Shown here: in pieces, positions 16,552-34,529 of the stretch | How positions within the stretch are numbered: position 1 is the stretch's first letter | Layout: each line of letters begins with the position of its first letter | Assembly: GCA_963721715.1 (NCBI GenBank) | Contig: CAVRKI010000004.1 | Coordinates: 1,283,876 to 1,347,875, forward strand | Length of the DNA stretch: 64,000 nt | From: an uncultured Acidobacteriota bacterium | GTDB lineage: Bacteria > Acidobacteriota > Vicinamibacteria > Vicinamibacterales > UBA2999 | Direction of reading: 5' to 3' | Translations under genes and position numbers: made by a program | The notes under the pieces: generated by a model | Seen by the model: the letters and a program-made list of their open reading frames with translations, nothing else | Database searches by the model: none | Told to the model about the DNA's origin: nothing

Positions 16552-16614
16552 ACGAGAACGTTGTACGGATCATAACATCGCCTGCAAGTCATTGATTCGA
16601 TGAGGTCAACAACC

Positions 16615-16630: not shown

Positions 16631-16653
16631 CTGCTTCAGGGGCAGGAGCCATC

Positions 16654-17316: not shown

Positions 17317-17333
17317 ACTGATCGGGGATATTC

Positions 17334-20690: not shown

Positions 20691-21101
20691 CTATTTCTGC
20701 ATCTTCTTCAGGTAGTCGGCGAGGGCCTGGATACGGATCTGCGCCGTGTCGCGATTGAGCGACCGGAAGAGGTCACCCCACATCGGCATGTCGCGCGATC
20801 CGTGCGCGGCCACCTCGTCGAGCCCTTCGATGTACCGCTTGACGCGTACGTCGGGGAAGGCGCCGCCGTTGCGCGCGCTGATCTTCGTGAGGTCGGCGGG
20901 CGCCTTGCCGAGCGCCGCGGCCGCCGGGCCGTTGCCGATACCGGTCGTCCCGTGGCAGGGGGCACAGTAGTTGGCGAACATCCCCGCAGCGTCCGACGCG
21001 GGCGTCTGCTTGATCGGAGCCTGTTCCACCTTGGTCTGGGCCTGGGCTGCCGAGACCGAAATGCCCACAAGGGCGAGAGTAACGAGCGCGTGCGCGAGCA
21101 T
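20691..21101 (-). CDS. Monohaem class-I cytochrome c (paralog 1)
   Basis: 136 aa. Signal peptide, CAPCH motif, DMPMWG Met-ligand region. Roughly three-quarters of residues match the 43302-43715 product by eye. Confidence 0.8.
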   Translation of the reverse strand: MLAHALVTLALVGISVSAAQAQTKVEQAPIKQTPASDAAGMFANYCAPCHGTTGIGNGPAAAALGKAPADLTKISARNGGAFPDVRVKRYIEGLDEVAAHGSRDMPMWGDLFRSLNRDTAQIRIQALADYLKKMQK

Positions 21102-21302
21102 GGCATCCCTCCTTCTGCCTCAAGCGGCAGTGTCGGCACTATGCGCCCCGAGCACCGCGGCCACTATGACCACGGTCATACGTCCGCAGGCCGGAGGCCC
21201 AATTCTTGCGGCCGACGCTCAGGCCGTGGCGCGTCACGCGCTCCGGCTGATTTCCGGACGCGCACGCCCACGCGGACGATGTGGCAGCCGCCGATCGCGA
21301 GC

Positions 21303-21710
21303 TCACCGCGGTGAGCCGGCGGGGGTGACGAGCGGAGCGTTGGTCTGCGGGACGTGACACGCGGTGCAGTTCCAGCGCGCGCCGGCCACTTGCGGACGCG
21401 CGACACCAGGCGCCTCGCGCATGTCGACGAAGTGGCTGGCCGAGGCCGGCGGCGGGCCGGTGGTGGCGCCCGCACGGCCGTGGCACCGGACGCACGCATT
21501 GTTCTTCGCGGTGATTGGTGTCAGTCCCCGAATGGCGTGCGGAATGAGCGGCGGTGCGCCCTCGAACTCGCGCGGCAGCCGCTGACTCTGACCGGGGCGT
21601 TGGTCGCCGTACTCGTAAACCGGTGGGTCGGCCGCCTGGCCACGAACCGCGGCGGGCGCGACCGCGGCCGCCAGCATGAGCACGAATGTTGGAATGCGCC
21701 GCATGATCAT
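21303..21710 (-). CDS. napB: Periplasmic nitrate reductase dihaem subunit NapB
   Basis: 135 aa. Signal peptide, PPLIPH motif, CVRCH and [12 protein letters not shown] overlap with the napA stop. Confidence 0.85.
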
Positions 21711-24482
21711 CCTCCGGCCACAGTGGCTGCGGCGCCCCGGCTCACCTTGACCGCGCATTTCTTGAAGTCGGTCTGCTTCGAAATCGGGCATGTCGCATCG
21801 AGCGTCACCAGGTTGATGAACACGCTCTCGTCGAACCAGGGCACGTAGACCATGCCGCGCGGCATCCCATAGCGGCCCTCCGTTTCCACGCGCAAGCGGA
21901 CCCGGCCGCGTCGCGATTCAATCCACGCCAGGTCGTGCCGCGCCAGGCCGCGCGCTTTCGCATCCTCGGGATGCATGAACAGCTGAGCCGACGGCACGGC
22001 GCGGTGCAGCGCGGGTACGCGCCGGGTCATGGTGCCCGAATGCCAGTGCTCGAGCACGCGGCCGGTGCTGAGCCACAGGTCGTAGGTCCGATCCGGCACC
22101 TCGGGCGGCACCGCATAGGGACGGAAGAAGATCTTGGCCTTGCCCGCCAGCGACACGGGCGCCCCCGGAGCGGGCCCATGCTGGTCGCCGGCCGGCAGGG
22201 TCTTCATCGCCGGCCCGTAGAAGTCGAAGGCGGCACCGGCACGCACGTACGGGTCGTGCTCGCCGTTGAACCGCCAGCGCGTCTCCTTGCCGTTCACCAC
22301 CGGCCACCGCAGCCCGCGCACATCGTCCGCCAGGTAGGCATCGAAGGGCGCGAGGTCGTGCGCGTGTCCGCGGCCGAACGAGGCGTACTCCTCGAACAGC
22401 GCCTTTTCTGGAAACCAGGCCTCGCCGAGATGCGTAACGGTGTCGTTCGCCCCCCCGTTCGCGATGGGATCTGGCCACACCACCTTGCGGTTGGCAGGCG
22501 TCGCGAACAGCACTTCGTAGAGCGTGGTCTCCGGACGGTGGCCGCGCGCTCTGGCCTTGCTCGACCACATCGGGGAGCCGGCCGTCCACGAACCCGGCGC
22601 TTGCCAGGCCCGGCACGCGCTGTTCGCCCCAGACGTCCGCGATGGTGAGGCGCTTCGAGAACTCGAGCATCTGCCACACATCCGAGCGCGCCTCGCCTGG
22701 AGCGGGCACCTGCTGCCGCCACAACTGGGTGCGGCGCTCGCTGTTCCCGTAGCCGCCCCACTTCTCGAAGATCATCGCGGAGGGCAGCACCAGATCGGCC
22801 ACGCGGGTGGAGATGCCTGGATAGACGTCGGACACCACGATGAAGGCGTCGAGCCGACGGGCGGCTTCCATCCAGTGATTGGCGTTGGCCGTGGACTGGA
22901 ACGGGTTGGTCACCTGCACCCACAGCCACTTGATGCGGCCGTCTTCGAGGTCGCGCATCATCTCGGTGATGTGGCTGCCCGGCTTCGGGTTGATGGTCCC
23001 CGCCGGCAGGGCCCAGATCTTCTCGGCCTCGCCGCGGTGCGCGGCGTTGTCCACGGTCAGGTCGGCAGGCAGGCGATGGCAGAACGTGCCGACCTCGCGG
23101 GCCGTGCCGCAGGCCGAGGGCTGACCCGTCAGCGAGAACGCGCTGTTGCCAGGCGAGGCGTACTTGCCCGTCAACAGGTGCGCCATATAGGCCTGCTCGT
23201 TGAGCCACGTGCCCCGCGTGCTCTGGTTGAACCCCATCGTCCAGAACGAGACGACCTTCTTCGCGCGGTCGGCGTAGACATCCGCCAGTTGCTGGAGTTT
23301 CGCCTTGAACTGGTCCAGCGGCTCGTCGGCGCGCCCACGCGCCAGTTCGGCCACGAAATCGAGCGTGTAGGGATCGACGGCCTTCTTGAAGCTGTCGAAG
23401 GTGATCAGCCAGTGGTCGTTCGGCTGTCCGCTCCGGGTCTGCCGGGCCGAGGTCCCCGCTTCGGCGGCGCGGCCCTGCCCGATCGCCTCCTCGCGCGTCA
23501 GGGTGTGCGCGCGCTGTTCGGCCCGCGTGTCCTTCTCCGCGGGATACATGCCGCGGTCGTCGTCTCGGAGGCCGTAGCCGATGTCGGTGTAACCGGCCGC
23601 GAACACACAGTGACGTTCGACGAAGGCGCGGTCCACCGCATCACGGGCGATGATTTCGCGCGCGATGTAGTTCCAGATCGCCAGGTCGGTTTGCGGACGG
23701 AACACGATTTCCAGGTCGGCCATCGCCGAGGTCGGCGTCGTGAAGGTGGTCAGGTGGACGATGCGGTAGTCCGGGCTGGCCAGCTTGCGCGCCGTGACGC
23801 GGGCCCAGAGCATGGGGTGCATCTCGGCCATGTTGGCGCCCCAGCTGACAATCGTGTCGGTGAGCTCGATGTCGTCGTAGCAGCCGGCGGGCTCGTCGAT
23901 GCCGAAGGTCTGCATGAACCCGGCGACGGCGGAGGCCATGCAATGACGCGCGTTCGGCTCGAGATTGTTGCTGCGCCAGCCAGCTTTGACCAGCTTCGCC
24001 GCCGCGTAGCCTTCCTGGATGGTGTACTGCCCCGACCCCATCACGGCGACGCCGGTCGGGCCCAGTTCCTGGTGCACGCGCTTGAACTGCGCCGCCATCT
24101 CGTCGAGTGCGCGTGCCCACGAGACGGGTGCGAACTCACCCTGCTTGTCGAACCTGCCATCCTTCATGCGCAGGAGCGGCTTGGTGAGACGGTCCGGGCC
24201 GTAGAGGATCTGGGCGTTGGCATACCCCTTCACGCATAGCAGGCCGCGATTGACCGGTGAATCGGGGTCGCCCTTGACGGCCACCACGCGGTTGTCGCGC
24301 GAGGCGATCTGGATGCCGCAGCCGGTGCCGCAGAAACGGCAGACGCCTTTGTCCCAACGCCAGCCCTCCTGGGCGTCGCGCGCGAGCGCCGCCAGGCTGG
24401 CCGGCAGCGGCAATCCCGCCGCGGCCGCCGTCACCGCGGCCGCACTGGCGCGAAGAAACGCGCGGCGACTGTGCCCGGTCAT
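21707..24482 (-). pseudogene. napA: Periplasmic nitrate reductase catalytic subunit NapA (paralog 1) with one +1 frameshift
   Basis: Tat leader [22 protein letters not shown] 4Fe-4S motif. NapA-like sequence runs throughout, but the frame changes between ..DVVEQGQSA and [13 protein letters not shown] at ~22543-22549 (extra C in GCGCGG). Confidence 0.85.
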
Positions 24483-24781
24483 GCCGCCGGCTCCGCGCCG
24501 GGCTCGTCCACGTAATGACAGACGAGGTCTACGGCCATCACGCCGGGCAGGCTGGCCAGGGCGGCATACCCCGCTTGCTGGCCGTCGAGCGTCGCCGTTT
24601 CGAGCGTCACAACCAGGCGCGCCCCGGCGTCGTCCCGGACGTGCACGTCCACGCCGGCCTGGTGCGCCAGGCGGCGCTCCACCGCATCGAGGGACCCCGG
24701 CTGCACGGCCACGAGCAGGCCGGACACGTGCATCTCGGCATCGAGGACGGTTCGCATCGGCTCGATTGTGAACTGGGTCAC
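24479..24781 (-). CDS. napD: NapA chaperone NapD
   Basis: 100 aa, GTG start. [14 protein letters not shown] ferredoxin-like pattern of NapD. ATGA overlap with the napA start. Confidence 0.75.
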
Positions 24782-24941
24782 AAGGCGGTCGACATGACAG
24801 CCGTCATACGCCCGCTGGTCGTGGAGTCCCGCAAACGAGGGCGCGCCAATCGGTGCCGGCCTGACGGCGGGCGACGGGCCTTAGGTGCATGAGCGTGGAC
24901 GCTGCGCGGCGACCCTCGCGGCGGCATGGACGGCTTCCAGG

Positions 24942-25481
24942 TCACTCCGGCACGTGACACTGACGGCACCGCACACGCTCCGGGTGCGTGGTCCGAATCT
25001 CCTCGCGCGCGGCCGGGCCGCCGTGGCAGGACAGGCAGTTCTCGCGGAGCTGGAGTGGGTGCGGGATGGTCGGCGGCGCGCCGGGGGTGGCACGGGAGCC
25101 CTTCCATGGTCCCTGCGCCAGGCCTGTGAACGACGACGCCACGAACAATGCACCCGTCTGAACGGGGACGTGGCATTGGCGGCAGCGCTGCATCGATCCG
25201 GCCGCCGCGGCCCCGCCGTGCGGGGAGGCCGGCGCAACGCCCACGCCCGCAATCGCAGCGCCCTCGTCGGTGTGGCAGGTGGTGCACGTGCCGAGCGTGG
25301 CGTCGTGAGGAACAGGAGGAGGCGCGCCGTCGTAGGCGCGAGTGGTGGCGCGCTCGCCCGTGGTGCGCGCCACGGCGGGGCCTGGCGCGGCGCTGCAGCC
25401 AACCCCGATCGACAGGGCCGCGATGGCCAGGGCCATCCGCCAGCGGACTCCGCCTCGTCGTCCTGTCGTCGTCTCGGTCAC
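24942..25481 (-). CDS. Tetrahaem cytochrome c made of two tandem NapB-like modules
   Basis: Four CxxCH motifs (CTTCH, CRQCHVP, CLSCH, CRQCHVP). Each module is preceded by an APPxxPH motif, as in NapB. The start is either GTG 25481 or ATG 25436 (lipobox-like SIGVGC). Confidence 0.7.
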   Translation of the reverse strand: MTETTTGRRGGVRWRMALAIAALSIGVGCSAAPGPAVARTTGERATTRAYDGAPPPVPHDATLGTCTTCHTDEGAAIAGVGVAPASPHGGAAAAGSMQRCRQCHVPVQTGALFVASSFTGLAQGPWKGSRATPGAPPTIPHPLQLRENCLSCHGGPAAREEIRTTHPERVRCRQCHVPE

Positions 25482-25482
25482 G

Positions 25483-27843
25483 TCACACCCGCTCGAGGCG
25501 CACCGCGCACTTCTTGTAGTCGGGCTGCTTGCTGATGTTGTCCATCGCATCGAGCGTGACGAGGTTGATGAGGCGGTCCTCGTCGAAGAACGGGACGAAG
25601 AGCGACCCGCGCGGCGGGCCGCCGCGTCCGCCTACCTCCACTGTCAACTCGACGCTTCCACGTCGGCTGGCCACCTTGACGCGATCGCCCTTCTTGATGC
25701 CCATCGATTCGGCGTCGGCCCGATTCACCTCGACATAGGCCGCTGGCACGGCCTGGTGCAGTTGCTTGATGCGACGCGTCATCGAACCCGAATGCCAGTG
25801 TTCCAGCACGCGCCCGGTGCACAGCCAGAACGGGTAGGCTTCGTCCGGTGCCTCGGCCGGCGGATGGTACGGGCGCAGCCAGAACGCCGCCTTCTCGCCA
25901 TAGCCCACGGCCTTGTAGAAGTGCGCGCCCGTCTTCTTCTTGACGTACGGATCGTAGCCGGCGGTGTAGCGGTAGGGCGTCTCCTTGCCGTTCACCACGG
26001 GCCACAGCATGCCGCGCGTCTGCTTCAGCTGCGCGTAGCTGGCGAGGTCCTTGCCGTGCCCGACGCCGAACTCCCGGTACTCCTCGAACATCGGCTCGTG
26101 CCAGTTGTCGTCGGGCCACGGGAAGAGATGGCCCATGCCCATCCGCTTCGCGACCTGGATGACGGCCCACGCGTCTTCGCGCGCCTCGCCCGGCGGCTCG
26201 ACCATCTTGTTCCACTGCTGCGTGCGGCGCTCGGTGTTGCCGAAGACGCCCTCGCGCTCCACCCACCCCGCCGCCGGCAGGATCAGGTCGGCCATGGCGG
26301 TGGTGGGCGTCGGGTAGATGTCGCTGACGACGACGAAGCGGCCGTCGTTCGGCGTGCGATCGAACCGCGAGCGGTTCGGCAGCGTCACCCACGGGTTCGT
26401 GGTCTGAATCCACAGCGCCTTCAGGTCGCCCCGCTTCAAGGCGCGGAACATGTCCACGGCGTGGTAGCCGGGGACGGCAGGAATGGTGCCGGCTGGCAGC
26501 TTCCAGATGCGTTCGGCTTCCGCCCGGTGCTCGGGGTTGGTCACCACCATGTCGGCGGGCAGCCGGTTGTTCGACGTGCCGACTTCGCGCGCGGTGCCGC
26601 AGGCGCTCGGCTGCCCTGTCAGGCTCAGCGGGTTGGCGCCCGGCCGGCAGATCTTGCCCGTAATCAGGTGCAGGTCGGTGATGAGGTTGTTCATCCACGT
26701 GCCGCGCACGTGCTGGTTGACGCCCATGCACCAGAGGCTCACGGTGCCTCGGGCCATGTCGCCGTAGATGTTGGCCAGCGCGCGAATCTGCTCCACGGGC
26801 ACGCCCGTGACCTCGCTGACGTGGGCAGGCGTGTAGTGCGCGAGGAACGTCCGCAGCTCGTCGAGCGAACTGGGCCTGGGCTGATCCTCGAACGTGTAGC
26901 GCTCGGCCTGGTCGCCGAAGCAGCCGTAGCCGATCTGCTTCACGTCCTCGATGCCGCGCCGGAAGACCACGTTCTCGTCGATGAACGGCGTGTGAATGCG
27001 GCCCTCGGCGACCAGCAGGTGGAGGATGCCGTTGGCGAGCGCCAGGTCGGTGCCCGGCTTGAAGAGCACGAACAGGTCGGCGTAGTCCGAGGTCGGCGTG
27101 CGGCGCGTGGCGATGTCGACGATGCGGGAGCCGGGCTTGACGCGGCGGGTCTCGAGGATGCGGCTGAAGAGCACGGGGTGCATCTCCGCCATGTTGTTGC
27201 CCCACAGCACGAAGTCGTCGCCGACGTCGAGGTCCTGGTAGCAGCCCATCGGCTCGTCGCTCTGGAACTGCGTGATGAACCCGGACACCGCGCTGGCCAT
27301 GCAGAGCCGGGCGTTCGGCTCGAGGTTGTTGCTCTTGAGCCCGCCCTTCACCCACTTCAGCGCCGCGTAGCCGTCGAACACGGTCCACTGTCCCGACCCG
27401 TACATCCCCACCGCGTCAGGGCCGTGCTGGTCCAGGGTCTCCTTGAACTTCGTCGCGATCAGGTCCAGCGCCTCGTCCCACGAGATGCGCGAGAACGATC
27501 CGTCGGCGTTGCGCTTCTGCGGGTAGAGCAGCCGGTCCTCGCCGTAGAGCATCCCCGGCAGGTGATAGCCCTTCACGCACAGCAGGCCCTTGTTGACCGG
27601 GCTGGCCTCGTCACCGCGCACGGCGACGACGCGTCCCTGCTCGACACCGACCATGACGCCGCAGCCGGTGCCGCAGAACCGGCACGGCGCCTTGTCCCAG
27701 GCAATCGAGGCGCGATCGACCGGCGCGCCGCCCGCCGCCAGCCGCGATGCCTCGTCCCGATCCGCGCACGAGTACGCCGCCACCGCCGGCGCCACGGCGG
27801 CGGCCAGCTTGAGGAATGCACGCCGCTTCAACTGCCCCTTCAT
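25483..27843 (-). CDS. napA: Periplasmic nitrate reductase-type molybdoenzyme NapA (paralog 2, intact, shorter)
   Basis: 786 aa from ATG 27843. Tat leader [23 protein letters not shown]. NapA-like throughout, but lacks the long insert seen in paralog 1. Confidence 0.85.
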   Translation of the reverse strand: MKGQLKRRAFLKLAAAVAPAVAAYSCADRDEASRLAAGGAPVDRASIAWDKAPCRFCGTGCGVMVGVEQGRVVAVRGDEASPVNKGLLCVKGYHLPGMLYGEDRLLYPQKRNADGSFSRISWDEALDLIATKFKETLDQHGPDAVGMYGSGQWTVFDGYAALKWVKGGLKSNNLEPNARLCMASAVSGFITQFQSDEPMGCYQDLDVGDDFVLWGNNMAEMHPVLFSRILETRRVKPGSRIVDIATRRTPTSDYADLFVLFKPGTDLALANGILHLLVAEGRIHTPFIDENVVFRRGIEDVKQIGYGCFGDQAERYTFEDQPRPSSLDELRTFLAHYTPAHVSEVTGVPVEQIRALANIYGDMARGTVSLWCMGVNQHVRGTWMNNLITDLHLITGKICRPGANPLSLTGQPSACGTAREVGTSNNRLPADMVVTNPEHRAEAERIWKLPAGTIPAVPGYHAVDMFRALKRGDLKALWIQTTNPWVTLPNRSRFDRTPNDGRFVVVSDIYPTPTTAMADLILPAAGWVEREGVFGNTERRTQQWNKMVEPPGEAREDAWAVIQVAKRMGMGHLFPWPDDNWHEPMFEEYREFGVGHGKDLASYAQLKQTRGMLWPVVNGKETPYRYTAGYDPYVKKKTGAHFYKAVGYGEKAAFWLRPYHPPAEAPDEAYPFWLCTGRVLEHWHSGSMTRRIKQLHQAVPAAYVEVNRADAESMGIKKGDRVKVASRRGSVELTVEVGGRGGPPRGSLFVPFFDEDRLINLVTLDAMDNISKQPDYKKCAVRLERV

Positions 27844-27916
27844 TGCCCGCTCCCGCCTTCCCTGCCGGCGTCCGTCTGCGCCATTCGTGGCCCCGATGTC
27901 CGCGTCATTCACGTCC

Positions 27917-29566
27917 CTATCGTCGCTCGGTCGGGGTCCCGTATCGGCGCGCCATCTCGCGGCTGATCGCGTCGGCTTGCGCCTCGGCGCCCTTCGACAG
28001 CCACTGGTGCTCGGGACGGGCGAGGATCTCGTCGATCACCGCGTCCACGCGCCGCGCGGCATCGGCCCGGCCGGTCTTCGCCGCCGCCGCCGTGATCTCC
28101 CGGGCCTGCGGGATCAGCCCCATGTAGAAGCGCTCGGCCACCTCGAACATCCCGTGCCACTGCGTGTAGTCGGGCGCCATCATCGAGGCGCCCATCCGCG
28201 CCCGCCGCCCCTCGTGATGCCAGAGGTAGTACCACGTCCACTCGATGTGGTCGTCGTACTGGGTCTTGGTGATCAGGCCGTCCGCCGCCAGGGCGTTCAT
28301 GATGGCTTGCCCGGGCTTGGCGAACTTCTCGTTGAAATGGATCACCAGATCGTCGTACTGCCGGTAGAACTGGTTGATGTAATCGGGGGTGTGGCAGTGC
28401 GAGCACACCTGTTTCATGCGATTGCGCTTCGCCTCGGACGTATCGGCGATCGCGGCGCGTCGCTGCTCGGGGTCGGTTTCGGTCACCACCGCATGATTGG
28501 CGTCGGTGTCCATCACCAGGCTCACTGGCGGCCGGTTGGTCCACGAGATGCGCTCGCCCGGGTCGTGGGTGACCTTCATGCCGTTCCGCGTGTTCGCGCT
28601 CATGTGGCACGTCGCGCACGTCGGCGCCGCGGTGTAGTCGCGACCGAGCACCCACGGGCGGGCGTCGAGGTTCATGTCGGCGGTCAGGTCGCGGAACGCG
28701 ACGCCGTGCTTCGACTCCTCGTAGATCTCCTTCTGGGGATGGTCGGGACCGAGGTGGCACTTGCCGCAGTTCTCGGGCTGACGCGCGCGGCGCGCCGAGA
28801 AGTCGTGGCGGCTGTGGCATGCGGCGCACGACCCCAGCGAGCCATCGAGGTTCATGCGGCCGATGCCGGTGTTCGGCCAGCTGGTGCTCGAGAGCAGCGG
28901 CTTGCCGCTCTCGTTCTTGACGATGCGACCGACCGCGTCCAGGTTGGTGGGCTGGCCGTTCTCGTCCGGCTTCAGGTCCCGCATGGTCACCACTCCGCCG
29001 TCGTTGGCCTGGAAGGCCACGAGCGATCCATGACACTGCTGGCAACCCGAATTGGCGGGCGCCATGCCGTTGACCACCTGCACCGCCTTGCCGGGCGTCG
29101 GTGAATGGGGACTGAACGCGACCCGCGAGCCCTCGACGGTTTCCGCCAGGAAGTTGTCGAGCGACGCCAGGATGTTGCCGGCCTTCGAGTGATGGCTGGC
29201 CGCGAACTGGGCCGACTCCGCCGGGTGGCACCGCGCGCAGTCGCGCGGCGTCACGATGGTGGCGATCTGGGCGCCGTAGTGCGTGAACACGTCGGCGTCC
29301 TTCGCCTCGGCCTTGTGGCAGTCCACGCATCCCACGCCCTTCTCGGCGTGGGTGGACCCGGTCCAATGATCGACGATGCCGCGCGACACCTGGGTGTGGC
29401 AGTCCACGCACTGGCGCGACGCCGCCGGTGTGGCGGCGGCCGAGGCCCGCCGGTCGCCGGTCTCGTGCGCCCGCCGCGAGACCTCGAGCCATTGCACGGC
29501 GACCAGCGAGAGCAGGAACAGCAGCCCCAGCCCGCCGATGACCCAGCGCTTCTGATCGAGTGTCAT
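27917..29566 (-). CDS. Membrane-anchored octahaem c-type cytochrome, hydroxylamine-oxidoreductase (HAO) family-like
   Basis: 549 aa from ATG 29566. N-terminal TM helix (WVIGGLGLLFLLSLVAVQWL). Eight CxxCH motifs (CVDCH, CVDCH, CARCH, CQQCH, CAACH, CGKCH, CATCH, CSHCH) and no CxxCK. C-terminal WTWYYLWHHEGRRARMGASMMAPDYTQWHG segment. Confidence 0.7.
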   Translation of the reverse strand: MTLDQKRWVIGGLGLLFLLSLVAVQWLEVSRRAHETGDRRASAAATPAASRQCVDCHTQVSRGIVDHWTGSTHAEKGVGCVDCHKAEAKDADVFTHYGAQIATIVTPRDCARCHPAESAQFAASHHSKAGNILASLDNFLAETVEGSRVAFSPHSPTPGKAVQVVNGMAPANSGCQQCHGSLVAFQANDGGVVTMRDLKPDENGQPTNLDAVGRIVKNESGKPLLSSTSWPNTGIGRMNLDGSLGSCAACHSRHDFSARRARQPENCGKCHLGPDHPQKEIYEESKHGVAFRDLTADMNLDARPWVLGRDYTAAPTCATCHMSANTRNGMKVTHDPGERISWTNRPPVSLVMDTDANHAVVTETDPEQRRAAIADTSEAKRNRMKQVCSHCHTPDYINQFYRQYDDLVIHFNEKFAKPGQAIMNALAADGLITKTQYDDHIEWTWYYLWHHEGRRARMGASMMAPDYTQWHGMFEVAERFYMGLIPQAREITAAAAKTGRADAARRVDAVIDEILARPEHQWLSKGAEAQADAISREMARRYGTPTERR

Positions 29567-29606
29567 GCGTGACCCCCACGTAGATTCACCACTTCGCTCT
29601 CCCCGC

Positions 29607-29649
29607 CTTGAACTCTTGAACGTTGAACGTTGAACCTTGAGCTTCCACC
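29607..29649. repeat. Heptad array CTTGAAC (t) CTTGAAC GTTGAAC GTTGAAC CTTGAGC in the cyt b / octahaem gap
   Basis: Direct reading. On the mRNA strand it reads GUUCAAC/GUUCAAG x4, 40-80 nt upstream of the octahaem start codon. Confidence 0.85.
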
Positions 29650-29660
29650 GGTTCCGCGCG

Positions 29661-30710
29661 TCAGTGCGCGACCAGCGCTTCCCACATCGTGAAGCCCATG
29701 ATCGTGAGCGCCCCGGCGACGCCAATCCAGACGCTGATGTCCGCATACTTGAAGCGGCGCACGAGCCAGTCGTCGATGAAGGGCCAGAAGAAGAAGATGA
29801 ACACGATCAGGCCCTGGGTGAGGACCGCCGTCGTGCCGGAGAACAACTTCAGCCAGCGGAACGCGGTGTAGAAGAACCACTCCGGCTTGATCACATCCGG
29901 CGTCACCAGCGGGTCCGCACGTGGGCCCATGCCCACCGGCAGCAGTGTCGCCAGCGCGCTCAGCAGGATCATCAGCGTGAGGCCGATGATGAGCTCGGTA
30001 TAGAAGTGCTCGGGGAAGAAGTTGAAGTAGCGCGCGGGCTTCTCTTCCTCGCCCTCGAACTTGAGTTCCGTCACCCCGTGCAGGCGCACCAGCCCGATGT
30101 GCATCATCAACACCAGGATGAGCACCACCGGCAGCACCGCGCCGTGCAGGATGAAGAACCGGGACAGCGTCCGGTCGTTGTAGACCTCGCCGCCGAGCAG
30201 CATCTGCTTCATCAGCGGCCCGACGACAGGCACCGAGTCGCTGATGTTGGCTCCGACCGTGGCTCCCCAGTAACTGAGCTGCTCGAACACCAGGCTGTAT
30301 CCGGTGAAGCCGAGCAGCAGGGTGCAGGTCAGCAGCGTCATGCCGATCATCCAGTTCAACTCGCGCGGTCGACGGTACGACCCGGTGAAGAACACCCGGA
30401 TCTGGTGCATCACCACCGCGGCGATCATCAGCGTGGCCCCCCACTTGTGGAGCCCGCGGAGATACCAGCCGAACGACGCATCTTCCGTGATGTAGCGCAC
30501 CGACTCGTAAGCCGTCGCCGGCGAGGGCTGGTAGTAGAACGCGAGGAGCACGCCGGTGACGATCTGCACGACGAACAGGTAGGCGGGCGTGCCGCCGAGC
30601 GCGAACCACCATCGCTTCAGGTGGTAGGGCACCGGCTCGTTGGACATCGCCGCCACGCCCTCGATCGAGACGGGCACGCGTTCGGCGATCCAGTCGCGGC
30701 TGGTGCTCAT
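29661..30710 (-). CDS. Cytochrome b (fused b6 + subunit-IV-like) of a Rieske/cyt b complex
   Basis: 349 aa. Haem-ligand His pairs in helices (LHKWGATLMIAAVVMHQIRVF and FFILHGAVLPVVLILVLMMHIGL). PEWFFY Qo-site motif. ATGA overlap with the Rieske stop. Confidence 0.85.
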   Translation of the reverse strand: MSTSRDWIAERVPVSIEGVAAMSNEPVPYHLKRWWFALGGTPAYLFVVQIVTGVLLAFYYQPSPATAYESVRYITEDASFGWYLRGLHKWGATLMIAAVVMHQIRVFFTGSYRRPRELNWMIGMTLLTCTLLLGFTGYSLVFEQLSYWGATVGANISDSVPVVGPLMKQMLLGGEVYNDRTLSRFFILHGAVLPVVLILVLMMHIGLVRLHGVTELKFEGEEEKPARYFNFFPEHFYTELIIGLTLMILLSALATLLPVGMGPRADPLVTPDVIKPEWFFYTAFRWLKLFSGTTAVLTQGLIVFIFFFWPFIDDWLVRRFKYADISVWIGVAGALTIMGFTMWEALVAH

Positions 30711-31333
30711 GCGGCGCCCTCTCCGTCGCTGCCGGGCGAACGGTGCTTCAGGCACGTCAGGCAGGGATCGTGCCCCGGCCCCTGCGGCGACACCACGTCC
30801 ACGACTCCCGCCTGCGAGGGCACGGACAGCTGCTCGGCGGGCACGTCGATGTAGAGCAACCCCTGCTGCACGTGGAGCGCGTACTGCGGCAGGGACAGCC
30901 CCGCGTCGCCGGGCGGACCGCCGGTCGCCTTGCCGGCCGGGTCGAACGTGCCGTTGTGGCACGGGCAGAAGTAGCGGTTGTTCTGCGGCTCCCACTGGAC
31001 CTGACAGCCGAGGTGCGGACAGGTGCTCGAGAGCGCGATGAAGTCGTCCACGGCGCCGGTCGCCGCCCGCCTCGTGATGTTCACCGTGCGGCCATCCGGC
31101 GTCTGATACAAGAGCGTGCCGCCCACCGCCAGGTCGCTGACACGCGCCACGAACAGCTGGTGCACCGCGCCGATGCGGGCCGGCAGCATGAAGCGCGCGC
31201 TCACCCAGGCGAACAGGCCATAGCCACCGGCGAGCCCGGCCACCATCAGCGCCGTCGACGACAGCCCAAGGGCATCGCGCCGCGAAGGTTCGGCGGCAGG
31301 TTCAACGTCCGGCTTCTGGTGATCGTGGGCCAT
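30707..31333 (-). CDS. Rieske 2Fe-2S subunit
   Basis: 208 aa. Tat/TM leader SRRDALGLSSTALMVAGLAGG. CPHLGC and CPCHNG cluster boxes. 11 nt downstream of cbaA. Confidence 0.85.
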   Translation of the reverse strand: MAHDHQKPDVEPAAEPSRRDALGLSSTALMVAGLAGGYGLFAWVSARFMLPARIGAVHQLFVARVSDLAVGGTLLYQTPDGRTVNITRRAATGAVDDFIALSSTCPHLGCQVQWEPQNNRYFCPCHNGTFDPAGKATGGPPGDAGLSLPQYALHVQQGLLYIDVPAEQLSVPSQAGVVDVVSPQGPGHDPCLTCLKHRSPGSDGEGAA

Positions 31334-31344
31334 CGTGCGACTCG

Positions 31345-32964
31345 TCAGAACGGCGAGAATCCCCGTGAGGGGAACCGCGCCATGGTATGCAGGTGATAGA
31401 GCGGCTGCGCGTAGGCCGCGAGGATCAGCAGGACCGCGACCGCGGTCCAGAGCCCGAACCGGTCCCAGACTGAGGAGCCTGCCACCGGCGCCACCATCGG
31501 CTCCGCGTACTCGATTTCTCCGAGCGCCCCACGCGGCATCACGAACATCGTGCCCAGGAGCACGAAGACGTAGCACATGGCCGAGACGAACAGGATCACG
31601 CCGCCCACGGCCGAGAGGTTGACGAGCGGGATCCACGCCGCGGCGGCCTCGTTGCCGTGGAACTCACCGGTGTAGACGCGCCGGGGCATGCCCATCAGGC
31701 CGGCGATGTGGCTCGGGATGCTGAAGAACTGCATGCCGACGAACCACAGATAGGGCTGCACCATGGCGACCCGCGGCCAGACCAGCGCCCGGCCGGTGAC
31801 GCGGGGCAGCATCCAGTAGCTGAAGCCCATGAAGCTGAGCGCCACGGCCGTGCCCACGGTCAGGTGAAAGTGCCCCTGCACCCAGGCCGTGTTGTGGATC
31901 ATCGCGTTCATCGCGTAGGCGGCGTTGATGGCGCCGCCGAAGCCGCCCAGCGCGAAGGTGATCATCGATAGCGCCACGCTGGCGAAGAACGGGTCGGCCC
32001 ACGGCAGCTTGCCGATCCAGCCGAAGGTCCCCGTGCCGCCACGCGCCCGCCCGGCGAACTCGAGCGAGGCGATCACCGTGAACGCGGTGACGAGGCTCGG
32101 GAACATGATGGCGTAGGTCGTGAACGTGTGGAGCAGCTTCCAGCCGCCGGCAATGCCCGGGTCCGTGAACTGATGATGGAAGCCGACCGGCGTCGAGAAC
32201 AGGATGAACTGGATGAAGACCACGCGCGTGAGCGCGTCGCTGAACAGTTTGCCGCCGGCCACCCGCGGGATGATGGTGTACCAGAGCACGTAGGCCGGCA
32301 CCAGCCAGAAATACGTGAGCGGGTGCCCGAACCACCAGAAGTAGGTGCGCGCCACGATCGGATCGATGCGGTCGACCAGGCCCACCGACCAGGGCAGGAT
32401 GAGCACCACCACCTCGATCGCCAGCCCGATGGTCGCCAGAATCCAGATGATGACCGTCGTCATCATGCCGTGCGCGGGCAGAGGCACGGGCGCGGACCGG
32501 TTGGCACGGCGCCACGCGACGAAGCTGGCGATCATCACGCCGCACCAGATCCACGATCCGACGACCAGCAGCGTGGCGCCGATGTAGAACGCGGGATGGG
32601 CCAGCAGCGGCGGGTAAAAGGTGTAGAGCACGGTGCTCGTGCCCGACAGAATGGCCACCGTCGTGATGACGGTCCCCACCACCGCCACCCAGTAGCCCGC
32701 CCACGCCCAGGCCTGCCCGGCGATGCGGCCGAGCGTGGTCTCGACCACCAGGTAACCGATGGCCATGATGAAGAACGTCGTGAAGACCAGCGCCAGCAGC
32801 ACGCCGTGCGCCGTGACCGACAGGTAATAAAGGCTGGCGGTGCCGAAGGGCAACTCGACGCCGGCCCGCGCCAGCGCCTGCATCACCGCCATCTGCGAGC
32901 CGATGCCGAAGGCGGCGACGGCCACCCAGAAGTGCGACAGGACCAGCCGGAGCGCGGGCGTCAC
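31345..32964 (-). CDS. cbaA: B-family (ba3-type) haem-copper oxidase subunit I
   Basis: 539 aa, GTG start in a GTGA overlap with cbaB. WWFGHPLTYFW (HPxxY His-Tyr), GFHHQF (CuB), QGHFHLTVG. Confidence 0.85.
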   Translation of the reverse strand: MTPALRLVLSHFWVAVAAFGIGSQMAVMQALARAGVELPFGTASLYYLSVTAHGVLLALVFTTFFIMAIGYLVVETTLGRIAGQAWAWAGYWVAVVGTVITTVAILSGTSTVLYTFYPPLLAHPAFYIGATLLVVGSWIWCGVMIASFVAWRRANRSAPVPLPAHGMMTTVIIWILATIGLAIEVVVLILPWSVGLVDRIDPIVARTYFWWFGHPLTYFWLVPAYVLWYTIIPRVAGGKLFSDALTRVVFIQFILFSTPVGFHHQFTDPGIAGGWKLLHTFTTYAIMFPSLVTAFTVIASLEFAGRARGGTGTFGWIGKLPWADPFFASVALSMITFALGGFGGAINAAYAMNAMIHNTAWVQGHFHLTVGTAVALSFMGFSYWMLPRVTGRALVWPRVAMVQPYLWFVGMQFFSIPSHIAGLMGMPRRVYTGEFHGNEAAAAWIPLVNLSAVGGVILFVSAMCYVFVLLGTMFVMPRGALGEIEYAEPMVAPVAGSSVWDRFGLWTAVAVLLILAAYAQPLYHLHTMARFPSRGFSPF

Positions 32965-33437
32965 CGTGCCGCCTCCACGATGATGGTGCCGTACATGTTG
33001 TGGTGCCCGAGCCCGCAGTACTCGTTGCAGACGACGAGGTACTCCCCCGGCTCGGTGAAGGTGGCGGTAGCCTCGCTCACATATCCGGGTGCGACCGTCA
33101 GGTTGACGTTCGTGCCGACGATCTGAAAGCCGTGCAGCACATCGGGGCTGGTGATACGGAAGCGGACGGACCGCCCAGCCGGCAGGCGCACCACGGCAGG
33201 CTTGAACACGTAGAACTCCGCCCGCATCACCACCGTGAGGCTGCCGTCTGGCGCCGTGACCACGCCGGGCGTCGCGAATTCGCCACTCAGGTCCAGCGTT
33301 TCAGGGTTGATGGTCTCCACGTGGCTCGGCGGGTGCGCCGACCCGGACACCGCCGTGATCACGATGGCGCCGAGGAACAGCACCAGCATGCCGGTCGCCG
33401 CCCACATCCAGTAGCGCTCGTAGCGGTCAACGTGCAT
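32961..33437 (-). CDS. cbaB: ba3-type oxidase subunit II (CuA)
   Basis: CuA motif CNEYCGLGHHNM. ITSPDVLHGF. Single N-terminal TM. ATG 33437 is preferred; GTG 33461 is possible. Confidence 0.85.
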   Translation of the reverse strand: MHVDRYERYWMWAATGMLVLFLGAIVITAVSGSAHPPSHVETINPETLDLSGEFATPGVVTAPDGSLTVVMRAEFYVFKPAVVRLPAGRSVRFRITSPDVLHGFQIVGTNVNLTVAPGYVSEATATFTEPGEYLVVCNEYCGLGHHNMYGTIIVEAAR

Positions 33438-33482
33438 GGCGGCCGTTCGCTTCCATGCCACCGGTTGGTCCGCGCGCGGCCA

Positions 33483-33839: not shown

Positions 33840-34529
33840 TCAGGGCTTTGGCCGCGCCAGCGCTGCGTATCGTGTGTGGCAGTCGGCGCAGGCCGCGAGG
33901 AGTTGTCCGTAGAATGCGGCGCGTGCGGAGAGGTCGGTGGCTTCTGCCGCGCCGGCCGCGAGGCGATGCAGGCGTTCCTCGGTCGACGCCAACCGTGTGC
34001 GCACGGCCGCGTCGACCGGCAGTTCCGTCGCGTTGAGCGGCGCGGAGGCCAAGGCGCGAGCGCCGTTGCGCCACGTCGCATCCGACGGCACGACCAGGCC
34101 TTCCACGAGTTGCTGCACCGCCACCTGGTGCTCGAGCATATGCCCGGTCAGTCCCGCGCCGACTGGCTGCGCGGGGGCGGGAAAGGCAGGCGTGACGCCA
34201 GCCGCGCGATGACACCGCCCGCACGCCGACAGCATCCCGGCGGTGTCGACCGCCGCCTCGAGAATGGTCCTGGCCTGGGCAACCTGTCGCGCGCCCTCGG
34301 CCAACGCGGCCAGGGGCCTGGACGACGCGAGCGCCTGCGAGCCGGATTGGGACCGGGCGACCTCGTCCGCCAGCGCGCGTGCCGCGGGCCCCACCGCCGC
34401 CAGATCGCCCCGGATGACCGCGCCGTGCAGCACCAGCGCCTGATCGAAATGCGCGCGCATCTGAGCCTGGTCGGCGGGCTGTGCCGCCATCAGGACGATC
34501 AGCACGGCCACGCGAAGGTCCCTGTTCAT
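33840..34529 (-). CDS. Dihaem protein with two tandem class-II (cytochrome c'-like) helical modules
   Basis: 229 aa from ATG 34529 (GGGAGGA SD, ATGA overlap with the upstream stop). Signal-like N-terminus. Each ~110-aa Ala/Leu-rich half ends in CxxCH (CGRCH, CADCH). Confidence 0.5.
   Translation of the reverse strand: MNRDLRVAVLIVLMAAQPADQAQMRAHFDQALVLHGAVIRGDLAAVGPAARALADEVARSQSGSQALASSRPLAALAEGARQVAQARTILEAAVDTAGMLSACGRCHRAAGVTPAFPAPAQPVGAGLTGHMLEHQVAVQQLVEGLVVPSDATWRNGARALASAPLNATELPVDAAVRTRLASTEERLHRLAAGAAEATDLSARAAFYGQLLAACADCHTRYAALARPKP

What the first reader, a model, noticed from the sequence alone, without database searches (positions are those of the whole stretch)
27917..31333. 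Rieske/cytochrome b complex genetically coupled to a membrane-anchored HAO-family octahaem outside anammox bacteria
Seen: the Rieske (CPHLGC/CPCHNG) and cyt b genes overlap (ATGA). They are followed by a 549-aa protein with one N-terminal TM helix and eight CxxCH motifs, no CxxCK, and an HAO-like C-terminal region. No cytochrome c1/f-type gene and no NapC/NrfH, NapGH or cM552-type quinol dehydrogenase is present anywhere in the cluster. Established: HAO-family enzymes (including reductive epsilon-Hao) are usually linked to NapC/NrfH-type quinol dehydrogenases or c554. To my knowledge, Rieske/cyt b clusters containing HAO-like octahaems have been described for anammox planctomycetes. Inference: the octahaem may serve as the c-type subunit of the bc complex. 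That would give a quinol:nitrite/hydroxylamine/NO oxidoreductase, and possibly the missing quinol dehydrogenase for both NapA paralogs.
Basis: partly seen in the sequence, partly recalled or inferred. Interest (0 to 1): 0.8.

Follow-up and report, generated by a model that had tools for sequence, protein, structure and literature searches.

The report
Quinol-oxidising complex with octahaem cytochrome partner
Three tightly packed genes encode a Rieske/cytochrome b quinol oxidase whose usual cytochrome c subunit is replaced by a membrane-anchored eight-haem enzyme of the hydroxylamine-oxidoreductase family; the trio is real and very widespread, but similar gene pairings outside anammox bacteria are already published.

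Summary
Window 27917-31333 (minus strand) encodes a Rieske protein, a fused b6/subunit-IV-type cytochrome b with an ATGA overlap, and a 549-aa octahaem cytochrome (OCC) with an N-terminal membrane helix. The OCC has eight CxxCH and no CxxCK.

By sequence and predicted fold it belongs to the HAO family. Its closest solved relative is the Ignicoccus nitrite/hydroxylamine reductase IhOCC. The HAO distal Asp-His pair is kept (D275-H276, 80/80 orthologues).

The order Rieske-cyt b-OCC holds in all 80 related loci examined, from about ten phyla. At least 591 genome stretches matched. NapA plus a tandem-NapB tetrahaem follow directly in 37 of 76 loci. The window has no c1/f, NapC/NrfH or NapGH gene.

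The OCC is therefore most likely the c-type subunit and terminal reductase of a menaquinol:nitrite (NO/NH2OH) oxidoreductase that also feeds Nap.

The "only in anammox" premise is outdated. Rieske/cyt b next to an HAO-family octahaem was described for Caldithrix abyssi (2017) and Nitrospira (reviews of 2018 and 2025 that cite earlier work). The module also differs from anammox R/b-3: no extra hexahaem, no NAD(P) reductase, fused cyt b.

Whether a cross-linking Tyr is present is unresolved (invariant Y467). Verdict: new member of a known, biochemically uncharacterised kind. Interest is moderate.

The parts
30707..31333 (-). Rieske [2Fe-2S] protein, 208 aa. It has a Tat-type SRRDALG signal/anchor and the motifs CPHLGC and CPCHNG (no Ser after CPCH).
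   Evidence: Translation. Pfam PF00355. The closest solved relatives are b6f-type PetC Rieske proteins, e.g. 5cxm, E = 1e-12.
29661..30710 (-). Cytochrome b, 349 aa, a fusion of a b6-like part and a subunit-IV-like part. Haem ligand spacing is H-x13-H and H-x14-H. The Qo motif is PEWF. The Cys that binds haem ci in b6 is Ala here.
   Evidence: ATGA overlap with the Rieske stop codon. Pfam Cytochrome_B plus Cytochrom_B_C. Best PDB match is Chlamydomonas b6, 1q90_B, E = 1e-50, with FYCIGG aligned to WFALGG.
29567..29660 (-). 94-nt spacer between cyt b and the OCC, holding about four copies of a 7-nt unit (GTTCAAC/G).
   Evidence: Sequence. The closest relative, L001, has a 15-nt unit repeated about 14 times at the same place.
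27917..29566 (-). Membrane-anchored octahaem cytochrome c (OCC), 549 aa, of the HAO family and IhOCC-like. It has a TM helix at about 3-35, eight CxxCH, the distal pair D275-H276, invariant R345 and invariant Y467.
   Evidence: Pfam PF13447. PDB profile search: IhOCC 4qo5 E = 1e-50, HAOr 6h5l E = 1e-28, NeHAO E = 2e-20. AF2 pLDDT 90.9. Foldseek top hits are all HAO-family. hhalign to NeHAO gives 99.9% probability. Conservation in 80 orthologues.
25483..27912 (-). NapA periplasmic nitrate reductase catalytic subunit. The likely true start is the Met before the RRAFLK Tat motif, near 27843.
   Evidence: NCBIfam NapA equivalog, 967 bits against a cut-off of 904. Directly downstream of the OCC in 37/76 related loci.
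24942..25550 (-). Tetrahaem cytochrome made of two NapB modules in tandem. It has an N-terminal hydrophobic or lipoprotein-like segment. It is the probable wire between the OCC and NapA.
   Evidence: Each half aligns to the canonical NapB of this window (GAPPxIPH...CxxCH...CxxCHVP; E = 2e-8 and 6e-7). The halves align to each other at E = 2e-10.
24479..24880 (-). NapD chaperone.
   Evidence: Pfam PF03927, E = 4e-18.
21707..24482 (-). Second NapA paralogue, split by an apparent frameshift near 22560-22630.
   Evidence: tblastn of NapA1 matches frame 2 down to 22629 and frame 3 from 22399. Pfam domains are split over two ORFs.
21303..21710 (-). Canonical dihaem NapB.
   Evidence: Pfam NapB, E = 4e-24.
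20691..21101 (-). Small monohaem class-I cytochrome c with a signal peptide, at the end of the same gene string.
   Evidence: Pfam Cytochrome_CBB3 and Cytochrom_C.
31345..32964 (-). Haem-copper oxidase subunit I. Its stop codon lies 11 nt before the Rieske start.
   Evidence: Pfam COX1, E = 1e-87. Junction sequence.
32961..33461 (-). Short CuA-type oxidase subunit II, 166 aa, with no cytochrome c domain.
   Evidence: Pfam COX2. Found upstream of Rieske only in the Vicinamibacterales/Acidobacteriota loci L001-L005 and L007.

Best explanation
The three genes encode one membrane complex. [quoted passage not shown] The place of cytochrome c1/f is taken by the membrane-anchored octahaem (OCC).

Proposed electron path:
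- The Rieske cluster passes one electron per turnover to the membrane-proximal haem of the OCC. This is inferred to be haem 1, which directly follows the TM helix.
- The other electron takes the b-haem route.
- Periplasmic reductions therefore become coupled to proton release and a Q-cycle.

Within the OCC the electrons have two exits:
1. The enzyme's own HAO-type active-site haem (haem 4, with Asp275/His276 and Arg345 in the pocket). It reduces nitrite, or NO or hydroxylamine, probably to ammonium or NO.
2. An outer haem that hands electrons to the tandem-NapB tetrahaem and NapA for nitrate reduction. In this lineage it may also feed the co-transcribed haem-copper oxidase.

Shown: gene content, motifs, family and fold membership, invariant synteny, and the absence of other quinol dehydrogenase genes in the window.

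Inferred: physical complex formation, the direction of catalysis, the product, and electron transfer to Nap and the oxidase.
For: Synteny:
- Rieske-cyt b-OCC order in 80/80 loci from Acidobacteriota, Gemmatimonadota, non-anammox Planctomycetota, Anaerolineales, Binatia, Myxococcota, Krumholzibacteriota, Eiseniibacteriota and others.
- ATGA overlap between Rieske and cyt b.
- Median gap of 27 nt from cyt b to the OCC.
- No other conserved gene family in the neighbourhood apart from NapA and tandem NapB.

Anchor rule:
- Membrane-anchored relatives at 46-52% identity also follow cyt b, and Rieske where the contig reaches.
- A soluble sister clade follows a multihaem/4Fe-4S/NrfD quinol-dehydrogenase module. 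Two other soluble relatives have no adjacent module.

Catalytic competence:
- HAO-family fold, with IhOCC, HAOr, HAO, HOX and HDH as the top hits.
- D275-H276 align with NeHAO Asp267-His268 and are 80/80 conserved, as is R345.
- 39/76 loci have no Nap after the OCC. There the OCC is the last gene of the module, which suggests it is itself the terminal enzyme.

Nap link:
- NapA plus tandem NapB lie directly downstream in 37/76 loci.
- The window has no NapC/NrfH or NapGH.
- Literature precedent: Rieske/cyt bc-dependent Nap respiration in Campylobacter (Garg et al. 2018, cited in PMC6896113).

Context:
- A NorR-like regulator and a YtfE/RIC NO-stress protein lie nearby.
- A NarL-type two-component system and a porin lie upstream in relatives.
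Against: - There is no experimental or structural evidence here for a physical complex.
- HAO-family proteins, including IhOCC, are described as trimers with oligomerisation helices, whereas Rieske/cyt b complexes are dimers. The stoichiometry is therefore unclear. AlphaFold3 could not place the HAO-like subunit on the anammox complex (PMC12954380).
- The five-coordinate state of haem 4 cannot be read from sequence.
- An invariant Tyr (Y467) lies within about two residues of the position of the HAO cross-linking Tyr in one alignment. This leaves an oxidative P460-type chemistry formally open.
- Only 64 kb of the genome is visible. NapC, NapGH or a cytochrome c1 could be encoded elsewhere.
- Small soluble cytochromes c are present in the window and could carry electrons instead of direct docking.
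Confidence: 0.62

Rival explanations
1. The octahaem is only an electron wire. It substitutes for c1/f and passes electrons to NapAB, the oxidase or soluble cytochromes. The HAO-type pocket is a structural relic with no turnover.
For: NapA plus tandem NapB lie directly downstream in about half of the loci. Oxidase genes are in the same operon in this lineage. Other membrane-anchored, cyt b-linked subfamilies have Gln instead of the distal His (P0125, P0131, P0132: GxDQP), so the His is not required for the Rieske/cyt b association.
Against: D275, H276 and R345 are invariant in 80/80 orthologues across about ten phyla. The GPDHPQ motif is kept in most of the wider family. In 39/76 loci nothing recognisable as an acceptor follows the OCC. 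All characterised relatives (IhOCC, HAOr, HAO) are enzymes according to the literature (PMC9250108; PMC8042395).
Confidence: 0.2
2. The genes are neighbours and co-expressed, but the OCC is not a subunit. The Rieske/cyt b pair reduces a soluble carrier, such as the monohaem cytochromes c of the window, which then serves the OCC, Nap and the oxidase separately.
For: Monohaem class-I cytochromes c are encoded at 20691-21119 and 43305-43751. The trimer/dimer symmetry mismatch makes a fixed complex awkward.
Against: These small cytochromes are not conserved beside the module in other phyla. Every Rieske/cyt b-linked OCC examined keeps the N-terminal TM helix, and its soluble relatives are not Rieske/cyt b-linked. 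Several TM residues are at least 90% conserved: K6, I10, L13, F17, S20, Q25 and E28.
Confidence: 0.1
3. The OCC works oxidatively as a P460-type enzyme cross-linked through Y467. It would oxidise hydroxylamine, NO or hydrazine-like compounds. The Rieske/cyt b complex would take up or redistribute those electrons.
For: Invariant Y467 (79/80) sits in an APDYTxWHG motif. It falls within ±2 residues of NeHAO Tyr467 in a MAFFT alignment. Some sources annotate the protein as hydroxylamine dehydrogenase.
Against: The profile alignment to NeHAO ends at residue 434. The cross-link region is therefore not detectably homologous. Sister clades carry W or F at that position, including IhOCC, which has no P460 haem (PMC9250108). 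The closest solved relatives are the reductive IhOCC and HAOr. The genomic company is Nap, NapD and nitrate/NO regulators, not ammonia monooxygenase or hydrazine synthase. Electron entry from a roughly 0 mV donor into a Rieske centre and on to quinone would run uphill.
Confidence: 0.05

Closest known systems
Caldithrix abyssi nap cluster: Rieske (Cabys_2558), cytochrome b (Cabys_2557), octahaem epsilon-Hao (Cabys_2556) (Kublanov et al. 2017, PMC5317091)
   Same: Same gene order, Rieske then cyt b then an HAO-family octahaem, next to Nap genes and with no NapC or cytochrome c1. The authors already proposed electron flow from the Rieske/cyt b complex to the octahaem and to Nap, and possible proton-motive coupling.
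   Different: The Caldithrix cluster also has NapGH and a NapM tetrahaem. The window has neither, and has a tandem NapB instead. Whether Cabys_2556 is an orthologue of this clade, and whether it is membrane-anchored, was not tested here.
Nitrospira OCC/ONR with adjacent Rieske/cytochrome b (petBC) (reviews PMC6311188 and PMC12342949)
   Same: An octahaem cytochrome c co-localised with two genes for a Rieske/cyt b complex. The complex is proposed to link nitrite reduction to ammonia directly to the quinone pool.
   Different: In Nitrospira it sits in a nitrogen-assimilation gene region and is expressed without ammonium. Here it sits with Nap and oxidase genes. Orthology to this clade was not tested.
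Anammox Rieske/cyt b complex R/b-3 (Kuste4569-4574) of Kuenenia stuttgartiensis
   Same: A b6-like Rieske/cyt b complex whose operon contains an HAO-like octahaem that lacks an assigned cross-link. It is proposed to reduce nitrite. Co-migration of all subunits was reported (PMC12954380; PMC12485887).
   Different: R/b-3 has an extra hexahaem cytochrome (Kuste4573) in the cytochrome f position, an NAD(P) oxidoreductase subunit and a split b6 plus SUIV. It is modelled with membrane c-type (cN) haems. The window has none of these extras, has a fused cyt b, and has Ala at the haem-ci Cys position. Kuste4574 is described as a close homologue of HAOr, whereas this OCC is nearer to IhOCC.
IhOCC (Igni_0955, PDB 4qo5), octahaem nitrite reductase (as named in PMC9250108) of Ignicoccus hospitalis
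   Same: Closest solved structure by sequence (E = 1e-50) and by fold (TM 0.64/0.67). It shares the insertion between haems 4 and 5 (WPNxGxGRxNPDGSxGxC) that NeHAO lacks.
   Different: IhOCC has Asp-Val where this protein has Asp-His, and Trp where this protein has Y467. It is archaeal and only about 24% identical. No Rieske/cyt b link is known to me for IhOCC.
Campylobacter jejuni Qcr (Rieske/cyt bc)-dependent NapAB respiration (Garg, Taylor and Kelly 2018, cited in PMC6896113)
   Same: A Rieske/cyt b complex, not NapC, as the quinol oxidase feeding periplasmic nitrate reductase, which makes Nap respiration electrogenic.
   Different: Qcr has its own dihaem cytochrome c subunit and is encoded away from nap. 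No HAO-family protein is involved.

Membership tests
HAO family of octahaem cytochromes c (Pfam PF13447; clade 1 of Soares et al. 2022: HAO/HDH + IhOCC) | Eight CxxCH motifs in the HAO order, with His (not Lys) as proximal ligand of the catalytic haem | tested here: met
   Eight CxxCH and no CxxCK. All eight motifs are invariant across a 65-sequence diverse alignment. hhalign to NeHAO gives 99.9% probability over residues 47-434.
HAO family of octahaem cytochromes c (Pfam PF13447; clade 1 of Soares et al. 2022: HAO/HDH + IhOCC) | HAO-type fold | tested here: met
   AF2 model with pLDDT 90.9. Foldseek ranks IhOCC, HAOr, NeHAO, KsHOX, BfHAO and HDH at E = 6e-20 to 4e-8. ONR and NrfA score E > 0.01.
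HAO family of octahaem cytochromes c (Pfam PF13447; clade 1 of Soares et al. 2022: HAO/HDH + IhOCC) | Distal Asp-His pair above the catalytic haem (NeHAO Asp267-His268) | tested here: met
   GPD275-H276PQ aligns with GVD267-H268NN. Conserved in 80/80 orthologues. NeHAO Tyr334 aligns with invariant Arg345.
HAO family of octahaem cytochromes c (Pfam PF13447; clade 1 of Soares et al. 2022: HAO/HDH + IhOCC) | Five-coordinate catalytic haem 4; homotrimer | not testable with these tools
   Haem ligation and oligomeric state cannot be read from sequence or from an apo monomer model.
Oxidative HAO/HOX/HDH subgroup (P460 enzymes) | Tyr that cross-links to the catalytic haem of the neighbouring subunit (NeHAO Tyr467) | tested here: inconclusive
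   Invariant Y467 (APDYTxWHG) lies ±2 residues from NeHAO Tyr467 in MAFFT. However, phmmer and hhalign do not align this region to HAO. Sister clades, including the P460-free IhOCC, carry W or F there.
Rieske/cytochrome b complexes (bc1/b6f superfamily) | Rieske protein with CxHxGC and CxCH cluster motifs and a Tat signal/anchor | tested here: met
   CPHLGC, CPCHNG and SRRDALG. Pfam Rieske. PDB matches to b6f and bc1 Rieske subunits.
Rieske/cytochrome b complexes (bc1/b6f superfamily) | Cytochrome b with two His pairs for haems bL and bH, and a PEWY-type Qo motif | tested here: met
   H-x13-H and H-x14-H pairs and PEWF are seen in the translation. E = 1e-50 to cytochrome b6 and about 1e-42 to bacterial cytochrome b.
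Rieske/cytochrome b complexes (bc1/b6f superfamily) | A dedicated c-type cytochrome subunit (c1, f, or di-/multihaem c) encoded with the pair | tested here: met
   The only c-type cytochrome always adjacent is the OCC (80/80 loci). That it functions as the subunit is an inference from synteny and its TM anchor.
Cytochrome b6f / Firmicute-type complexes | Cys (b6 Cys35) that covalently binds haem ci/cn | tested here: not met
   Chlamydomonas b6 FYC35IGG aligns with WFALGG, so the position is Ala.
Anammox R/b-3-type complex (Kuste4569-4574) | Additional hexa- or octahaem cytochrome in the f position, an NAD(P) oxidoreductase subunit, and split b6 plus SUIV | tested here: not met
   No further gene lies within the Rieske-cyt b-OCC trio, and no other gene family is conserved around it, in the window or in 80 loci. 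Cyt b is one 349-aa protein. Features of R/b-3 are taken from PMC12954380.
Nap periplasmic nitrate reductase system | NapA catalytic subunit, NapB-type dihaem partner, NapD chaperone | tested here: met
   NapA equivalog scores above the cut-off. A canonical NapB and NapD are present. A tandem NapB is present.
Nap periplasmic nitrate reductase system | Quinol dehydrogenase NapC (tetrahaem NapC/NirT) or NapGH | tested here: not met
   No such gene in 64 kb: there is no TM tetrahaem other than the tandem NapB, and no CxxCxxCxxxCP motif. The rest of the genome is not visible.

The most novel reading that the evidence does not exclude
The octahaem is the sole c-type subunit of a simplified b6-type complex and acts as a branching hub. 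Q-cycle-coupled electrons would go to its own nitrite/NO/NH2OH-reducing haem, to NapA via a tandem NapB, and in Vicinamibacterales to a co-transcribed haem-copper oxidase.

This would give a widespread, so far uncharacterised, energy-conserving route for periplasmic nitrate and nitrite reduction. It would occur in soil and sediment Acidobacteriota, Gemmatimonadota, Planctomycetota and others. It would be invisible to nrfA/nirK/nirS surveys and is currently mislabelled 'hydroxylamine dehydrogenase'.
Probability: 0.35. Interest if true: 0.75.

Novelty: new member of a known kind. Interest (0 to 1): 0.5.

Why it matters
Periplasmic nitrate (Nap) and multihaem nitrite reductases are usually regarded as non-electrogenic, because NapC/NrfH-type quinol dehydrogenases conserve no energy. 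If the complex works as proposed, it would make these reductions proton-motive.

The module is not a curiosity:
- More than 7,700 proteins have E <= 1e-10.
- Identity is 65-91% across about ten phyla.

No member has been purified outside anammox bacteria.

The protein is also labelled 'hydroxylamine dehydrogenase/oxidoreductase' by several sources. It may therefore inflate 'hao'/nitrification counts in metagenome surveys of soils and sediments, while a probable nitrite-reducing activity goes uncounted.

The conceptual step, a Rieske/cyt b complex as donor to an HAO-family octahaem outside anammox, is already in the literature.

Tried and rejected
1. The first AlphaFold2 run used 50 close homologues (at least 69% identity). 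It gave pLDDT 54 and was discarded. A 65-sequence diverse alignment gave pLDDT 90.9.
2. The Foldseek afdb50 library was not available. I could therefore not list named UniProt relatives such as the Nitrospira or Caldithrix proteins.
3. I tried several ways to place the cross-linking Tyr. A phmmer search of the C-terminal 170 aa against the PDB found only IhOCC. MAFFT with NeHAO places Tyr467 one residue from Y467, but in a weakly aligned loop. The hhalign profile alignment stops at residue 434. This point is unresolved.
4. I considered whether the 4-haem protein at 24942-25550 is a NapC/NrfH quinol dehydrogenase, given its weak sub-threshold hits. I rejected this because it is two NapB modules in tandem.
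5. The listing of cluster members on 20 distant representatives gave few organism names and none from Nitrospira or Caldithrix. Orthology with the published cases remains untested.
6. Dibrova et al. 2013 and Koch et al. 2015 are not held in the library. ten Brink et al. 2013 was not looked for. Earlier mentions of such clusters may exist that I could not read.
7. I did not attempt a multimer model, because the structure tool takes one chain only.

Full report
**1. What is in the window**

The window is about 69% G+C. The region of the finding lies in a long string of minus-strand genes with very short or no gaps. In order:
- CuA-type oxidase subunit II (32961-33461).
- Haem-copper oxidase subunit I (31345-32964).
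- Rieske protein (30707-31333).
- Cytochrome b (29661-30710).
- The octahaem (27917-29566).
- NapA (25483-27912).
- A tetrahaem cytochrome (24942-25550).
- NapD (24479-24880).
- A second NapA with an apparent frameshift (21707-24482).
- A canonical dihaem NapB (21303-21710).
- A small monohaem cytochrome c (20691-21101).

Pfam and NCBIfam support these calls.

- CPHLGC and CPCHNG are in the Rieske protein.
- The Rieske stop and the cyt b start overlap as ATGA.
- The octahaem has 549 aa, eight CxxCH and no CxxCK.
- It has an N-terminal helix at residues 3-35 in a confident AlphaFold2 model (pLDDT 90.9).

A six-frame scan of the whole 64 kb finds CxxCH motifs only in six proteins. These are the OCC, NapB, the tetrahaem, two small class-I cytochromes c (20694-21119 and 43305-43751) and a dihaem c'-like protein (33843-34568). 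A seventh, single-motif ORF (60973-61722) has no Pfam match and is probably spurious. The scan finds no ferredoxin-type CxxCxxCxxxCP motif. So no c1/f, NapC/NrfH, cM552 or NapG/H/F gene is present in the window.

The tetrahaem gives weak sub-threshold NapC/NirT and NrfH hits. Each of its halves aligns with the canonical NapB of the same window (GAPPxIPH...CxxCH...CxxCHVP), and the halves align with each other. It is a tandem NapB, not a quinol dehydrogenase.

**2. What the octahaem is**

Family and fold:
- It matches Pfam PF13447, the HAO family.
- Against solved structures, a family profile gives IhOCC of Ignicoccus hospitalis (4qo5) at E = 1e-50, the reductive HAO-like Kustc0458 (6h5l) at 1e-28, and Nitrosomonas HAO at 2e-20. 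Octahaem nitrite reductase ONR scores only 3e-5.
- The model's Foldseek hits rank the same way: IhOCC with TM 0.64/0.67, then HAOr, HAO, HOX and HDH. ONR and NrfA are above E = 0.01.
- hhalign of a 65-sequence diverse alignment against NeHAO gives 99.9% probability over residues 47-434.
- The protein shares with IhOCC an insertion between haems 4 and 5 (WPNTGIGRxNxDGSxGSC) that NeHAO lacks.

Active site:
- The motif CGKCHLGPD275H276PQ aligns with NeHAO CATCHSGVD267H268NN, the distal Asp-His pair. The NeHAO numbering was checked against PDB chain 4fas.
- NeHAO Tyr334 aligns with Arg345.
- D275, H276 and R345 are present in 80 of 80 orthologues.

Cross-linking Tyr:
- This could not be settled. 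NeHAO Tyr467 lies in GGWTY467TEGW.
- The family has an invariant Tyr467 (79/80) in APDYTxWHG. MAFFT places it one residue away from NeHAO Tyr467.
- Neither phmmer nor hhalign aligns this region to HAO.
- IhOCC, which has no P460 haem (PMC9250108), has Trp there. Other sister clades have W or F.
- I read this as an aromatic structural position rather than a cross-link, but it needs spectroscopy or mass spectrometry.

**3. The Rieske/cytochrome b pair**

- Cyt b is closest to cytochrome b6 (1q90_B, E = 1e-50) and continues into a subunit-IV-like part in one 349-aa protein.
- It has the H-x13-H and H-x14-H ligand pairs and a PEWF Qo motif.
- The Cys that binds haem ci in b6 is Ala.
- The Rieske protein has a Tat motif. 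It lacks the Ser after CPCH that, from general knowledge of Rieske proteins, goes with high-potential centres. This fits a menaquinol-oxidising complex (an inference).
- Its closest solved relatives are b6f-type PetC proteins.

**4. Comparative genomics**

Abundance and spread:
- The OCC family is very large and very conserved. More than 7,700 proteins have E <= 1e-10, and the best 120 are all at least 70% identical.
- The whole family at 65% identity or more collapses into a single 50%-identity cluster.
- The best 80 loci are all metagenome-assembled genomes. Their labels include Acidobacteriota (Vicinamibacterales, Thermoanaerobaculia), Gemmatimonadota, non-anammox Planctomycetota, Anaerolineales, Binatia, Myxococcota, Krumholzibacteriota and Eiseniibacteriota.

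Gene order:
- In all 80 loci cyt b lies directly upstream, and Rieske lies upstream of that wherever the contig reaches. The median gap from cyt b to the OCC is 27 nt.
- Clustering of all neighbouring ORFs finds no other widely conserved partner except NapA and the tandem NapB.
- NapA follows the OCC directly in 37 of 76 loci that have enough downstream sequence. In the other 39 it does not. In one annotated example of these, L090, unrelated genes follow the OCC.
- The oxidase genes are upstream only in the Vicinamibacterales/Acidobacteriota loci closest to the window. They are downstream of Nap in two others.

Distant relatives:
- Two membrane-anchored relatives at 52% and 46% identity again follow cyt b. 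Rieske is visible upstream only in the first, because the second contig is cut.
- A soluble relative (49% identity; Planctomycetota/Brocadiaceae labels) follows a multihaem + 4Fe-4S + NrfD-type module.
- Two other soluble relatives have no adjacent quinol dehydrogenase.
- So the membrane anchor and the Rieske/cyt b genes go together, and another quinol-dehydrogenase module can occupy the same genomic slot. This is the strongest indirect evidence that the Rieske/cyt b pair is the OCC's quinol dehydrogenase.

**5. Mechanism proposed**

- Quinol is oxidised at Qo, and one electron goes through the Rieske head to the OCC.
- Because the TM helix is followed after a short linker by haem 1 (C53), haem 1 is the likely entry point. 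This is an inference.
- From the haem chain, electrons can reach the HAO-type catalytic haem 4, where nitrite, NO or hydroxylamine would be reduced. They can also leave to the tandem NapB and NapA.
- Direct donation to the short CuA subunit of the co-transcribed oxidase is possible in this lineage, but it is speculative.

Context fits N-oxide respiration:
- The window has a NorR-like sigma-54 activator and a YtfE/RIC protein.
- Relatives have a NarL-type two-component system and an alginate-export-type porin upstream of Rieske.

Arguments against, or open points:
- No physical evidence.
- The HAO-family trimer versus bc dimer mismatch.
- Soluble cytochromes c in the window.
- The rest of the genome is unseen.

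**6. Comparison with the literature**

The premise that such clusters are known only from anammox bacteria does not hold.
- Kublanov et al. (2017) described Rieske (Cabys_2558), cyt b (Cabys_2557) and an octahaem epsilon-Hao (Cabys_2556) in the nap cluster of Caldithrix abyssi. They proposed electron transfer from the Rieske/cyt b complex directly to the octahaem and to Nap, with possible proton-motive force generation (PMC5317091).
- For Nitrospira, an octahaem cytochrome c co-localised with a Rieske/cyt b complex has been discussed as a quinol-linked nitrite reductase (PMC6311188; PMC12342949).
- Rieske/cyt bc-dependent Nap respiration is established in Campylobacter (Garg et al. 2018, as cited in PMC6896113).
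- The anammox R/b-3 complex differs. It has an extra hexahaem cytochrome, an NAD(P) oxidoreductase subunit and a split b6/SUIV (PMC12954380). Its octahaem, Kuste4574, is described as a close homologue of HAOr (PMC12485887), whereas the present OCC is nearer to IhOCC.
- I found no paper in the held library that describes the breadth of this module, the anchor rule or the tandem NapB. Several key subscription papers could not be read.

**7. Verdict**

The functional inference is well supported by synteny. The novelty premise is wrong.
- The finding is a new member, in Vicinamibacterales-type Acidobacteriota, of a known but biochemically uncharacterised kind of module.
- Interest is moderate (0.5). 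A specialist would not be very surprised. However, the module is abundant, probably misannotated as hydroxylamine dehydrogenase, and offers a testable route to energy-conserving periplasmic nitrate and nitrite reduction.

Noticed in passing
window 24942-25550 (-): The tetrahaem cytochrome after NapA is a tandem duplication of NapB. It has two GAPPxIPH...CxxCH...CxxCHVP modules and a hydrophobic or lipoprotein-like N-terminus. It co-occurs with NapA downstream of the octahaem in many phyla. A canonical dihaem NapB (21303-21710) serves the second NapA.
   Followed up: partly
window 21707-24482 (-), break near 22560-22630: The second NapA paralogue is split into two reading frames by an apparent single-base frameshift. 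This is either a pseudogene or a sequencing or assembly error.
   Followed up: partly
window 29590-29630; L001 5790-5990: The cyt b-octahaem spacer holds short tandem repeats. The window has about four copies of GTTCAAC/G. The closest relative, L001, has about 14 copies of a 15-nt unit (GGTTCGAAGCACGAT). Most other loci have a spacer of only about 27 nt. Function unknown.
   Followed up: no
window 31345-33461 (-): A haem-copper oxidase sits in the same tight gene string, 11 nt before the Rieske gene. It comprises subunit I and a short 166-aa CuA subunit II with no cytochrome c domain. This arrangement is seen only in the closest Acidobacteriota/Vicinamibacterales loci. In L029 and L034 the oxidase genes lie downstream of Nap. 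It hints at a shared complex or supercomplex for O2 and N-oxide reduction.
   Followed up: partly
window 14974-20320: A neighbouring set of NO-related genes: a NorR-like GAF/sigma-54 activator (14974-16569, -), a YtfE/RIC di-iron protein (16576-17316, +), a three-domain multicopper oxidase (17322-18815, +) and an alginate-export-type outer-membrane porin (18707-20320, +).
   Followed up: partly
L088 4203-5426; L089 4937-6166; L090 5075-6337; also L008, L009, L018, L038, L042: An alginate-export-family (PF13372) porin gene lies directly upstream of the Rieske gene in several distant genomes (5 of 64 loci by tblastn, plus three annotated loci). It may be an outer-membrane channel for nitrate or nitrite.
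   Followed up: partly
L083 3090-7479: A soluble sister clade of the octahaem (49% identity; Planctomycetota/Brocadiaceae labels) follows a multihaem cytochrome, a 4Fe-4S protein and an NrfD-type membrane protein instead of Rieske/cyt b. The same enzyme family is thus wired to a different quinol-dehydrogenase module.
   Followed up: partly
window 41847-43751 (-): A second multicopper oxidase (41847-43217) lies next to a second small monohaem cytochrome c (43305-43751).
   Followed up: no
window 33840-34568 (-): A dihaem protein with two cytochrome c'-like four-helix halves (CGRCH and CADCH near the end of each half) lies about 380 nt upstream of the oxidase genes.
   Followed up: no
proteins P0001, P0002, P0010, P0062, P0108, P0111: Public sources name close homologues 'hydroxylamine dehydrogenase' or 'hydroxylamine oxidoreductase'. 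Given the Nap context and the IhOCC-like sequence, this label probably misleads nitrification gene counts in metagenome surveys.
   Followed up: no
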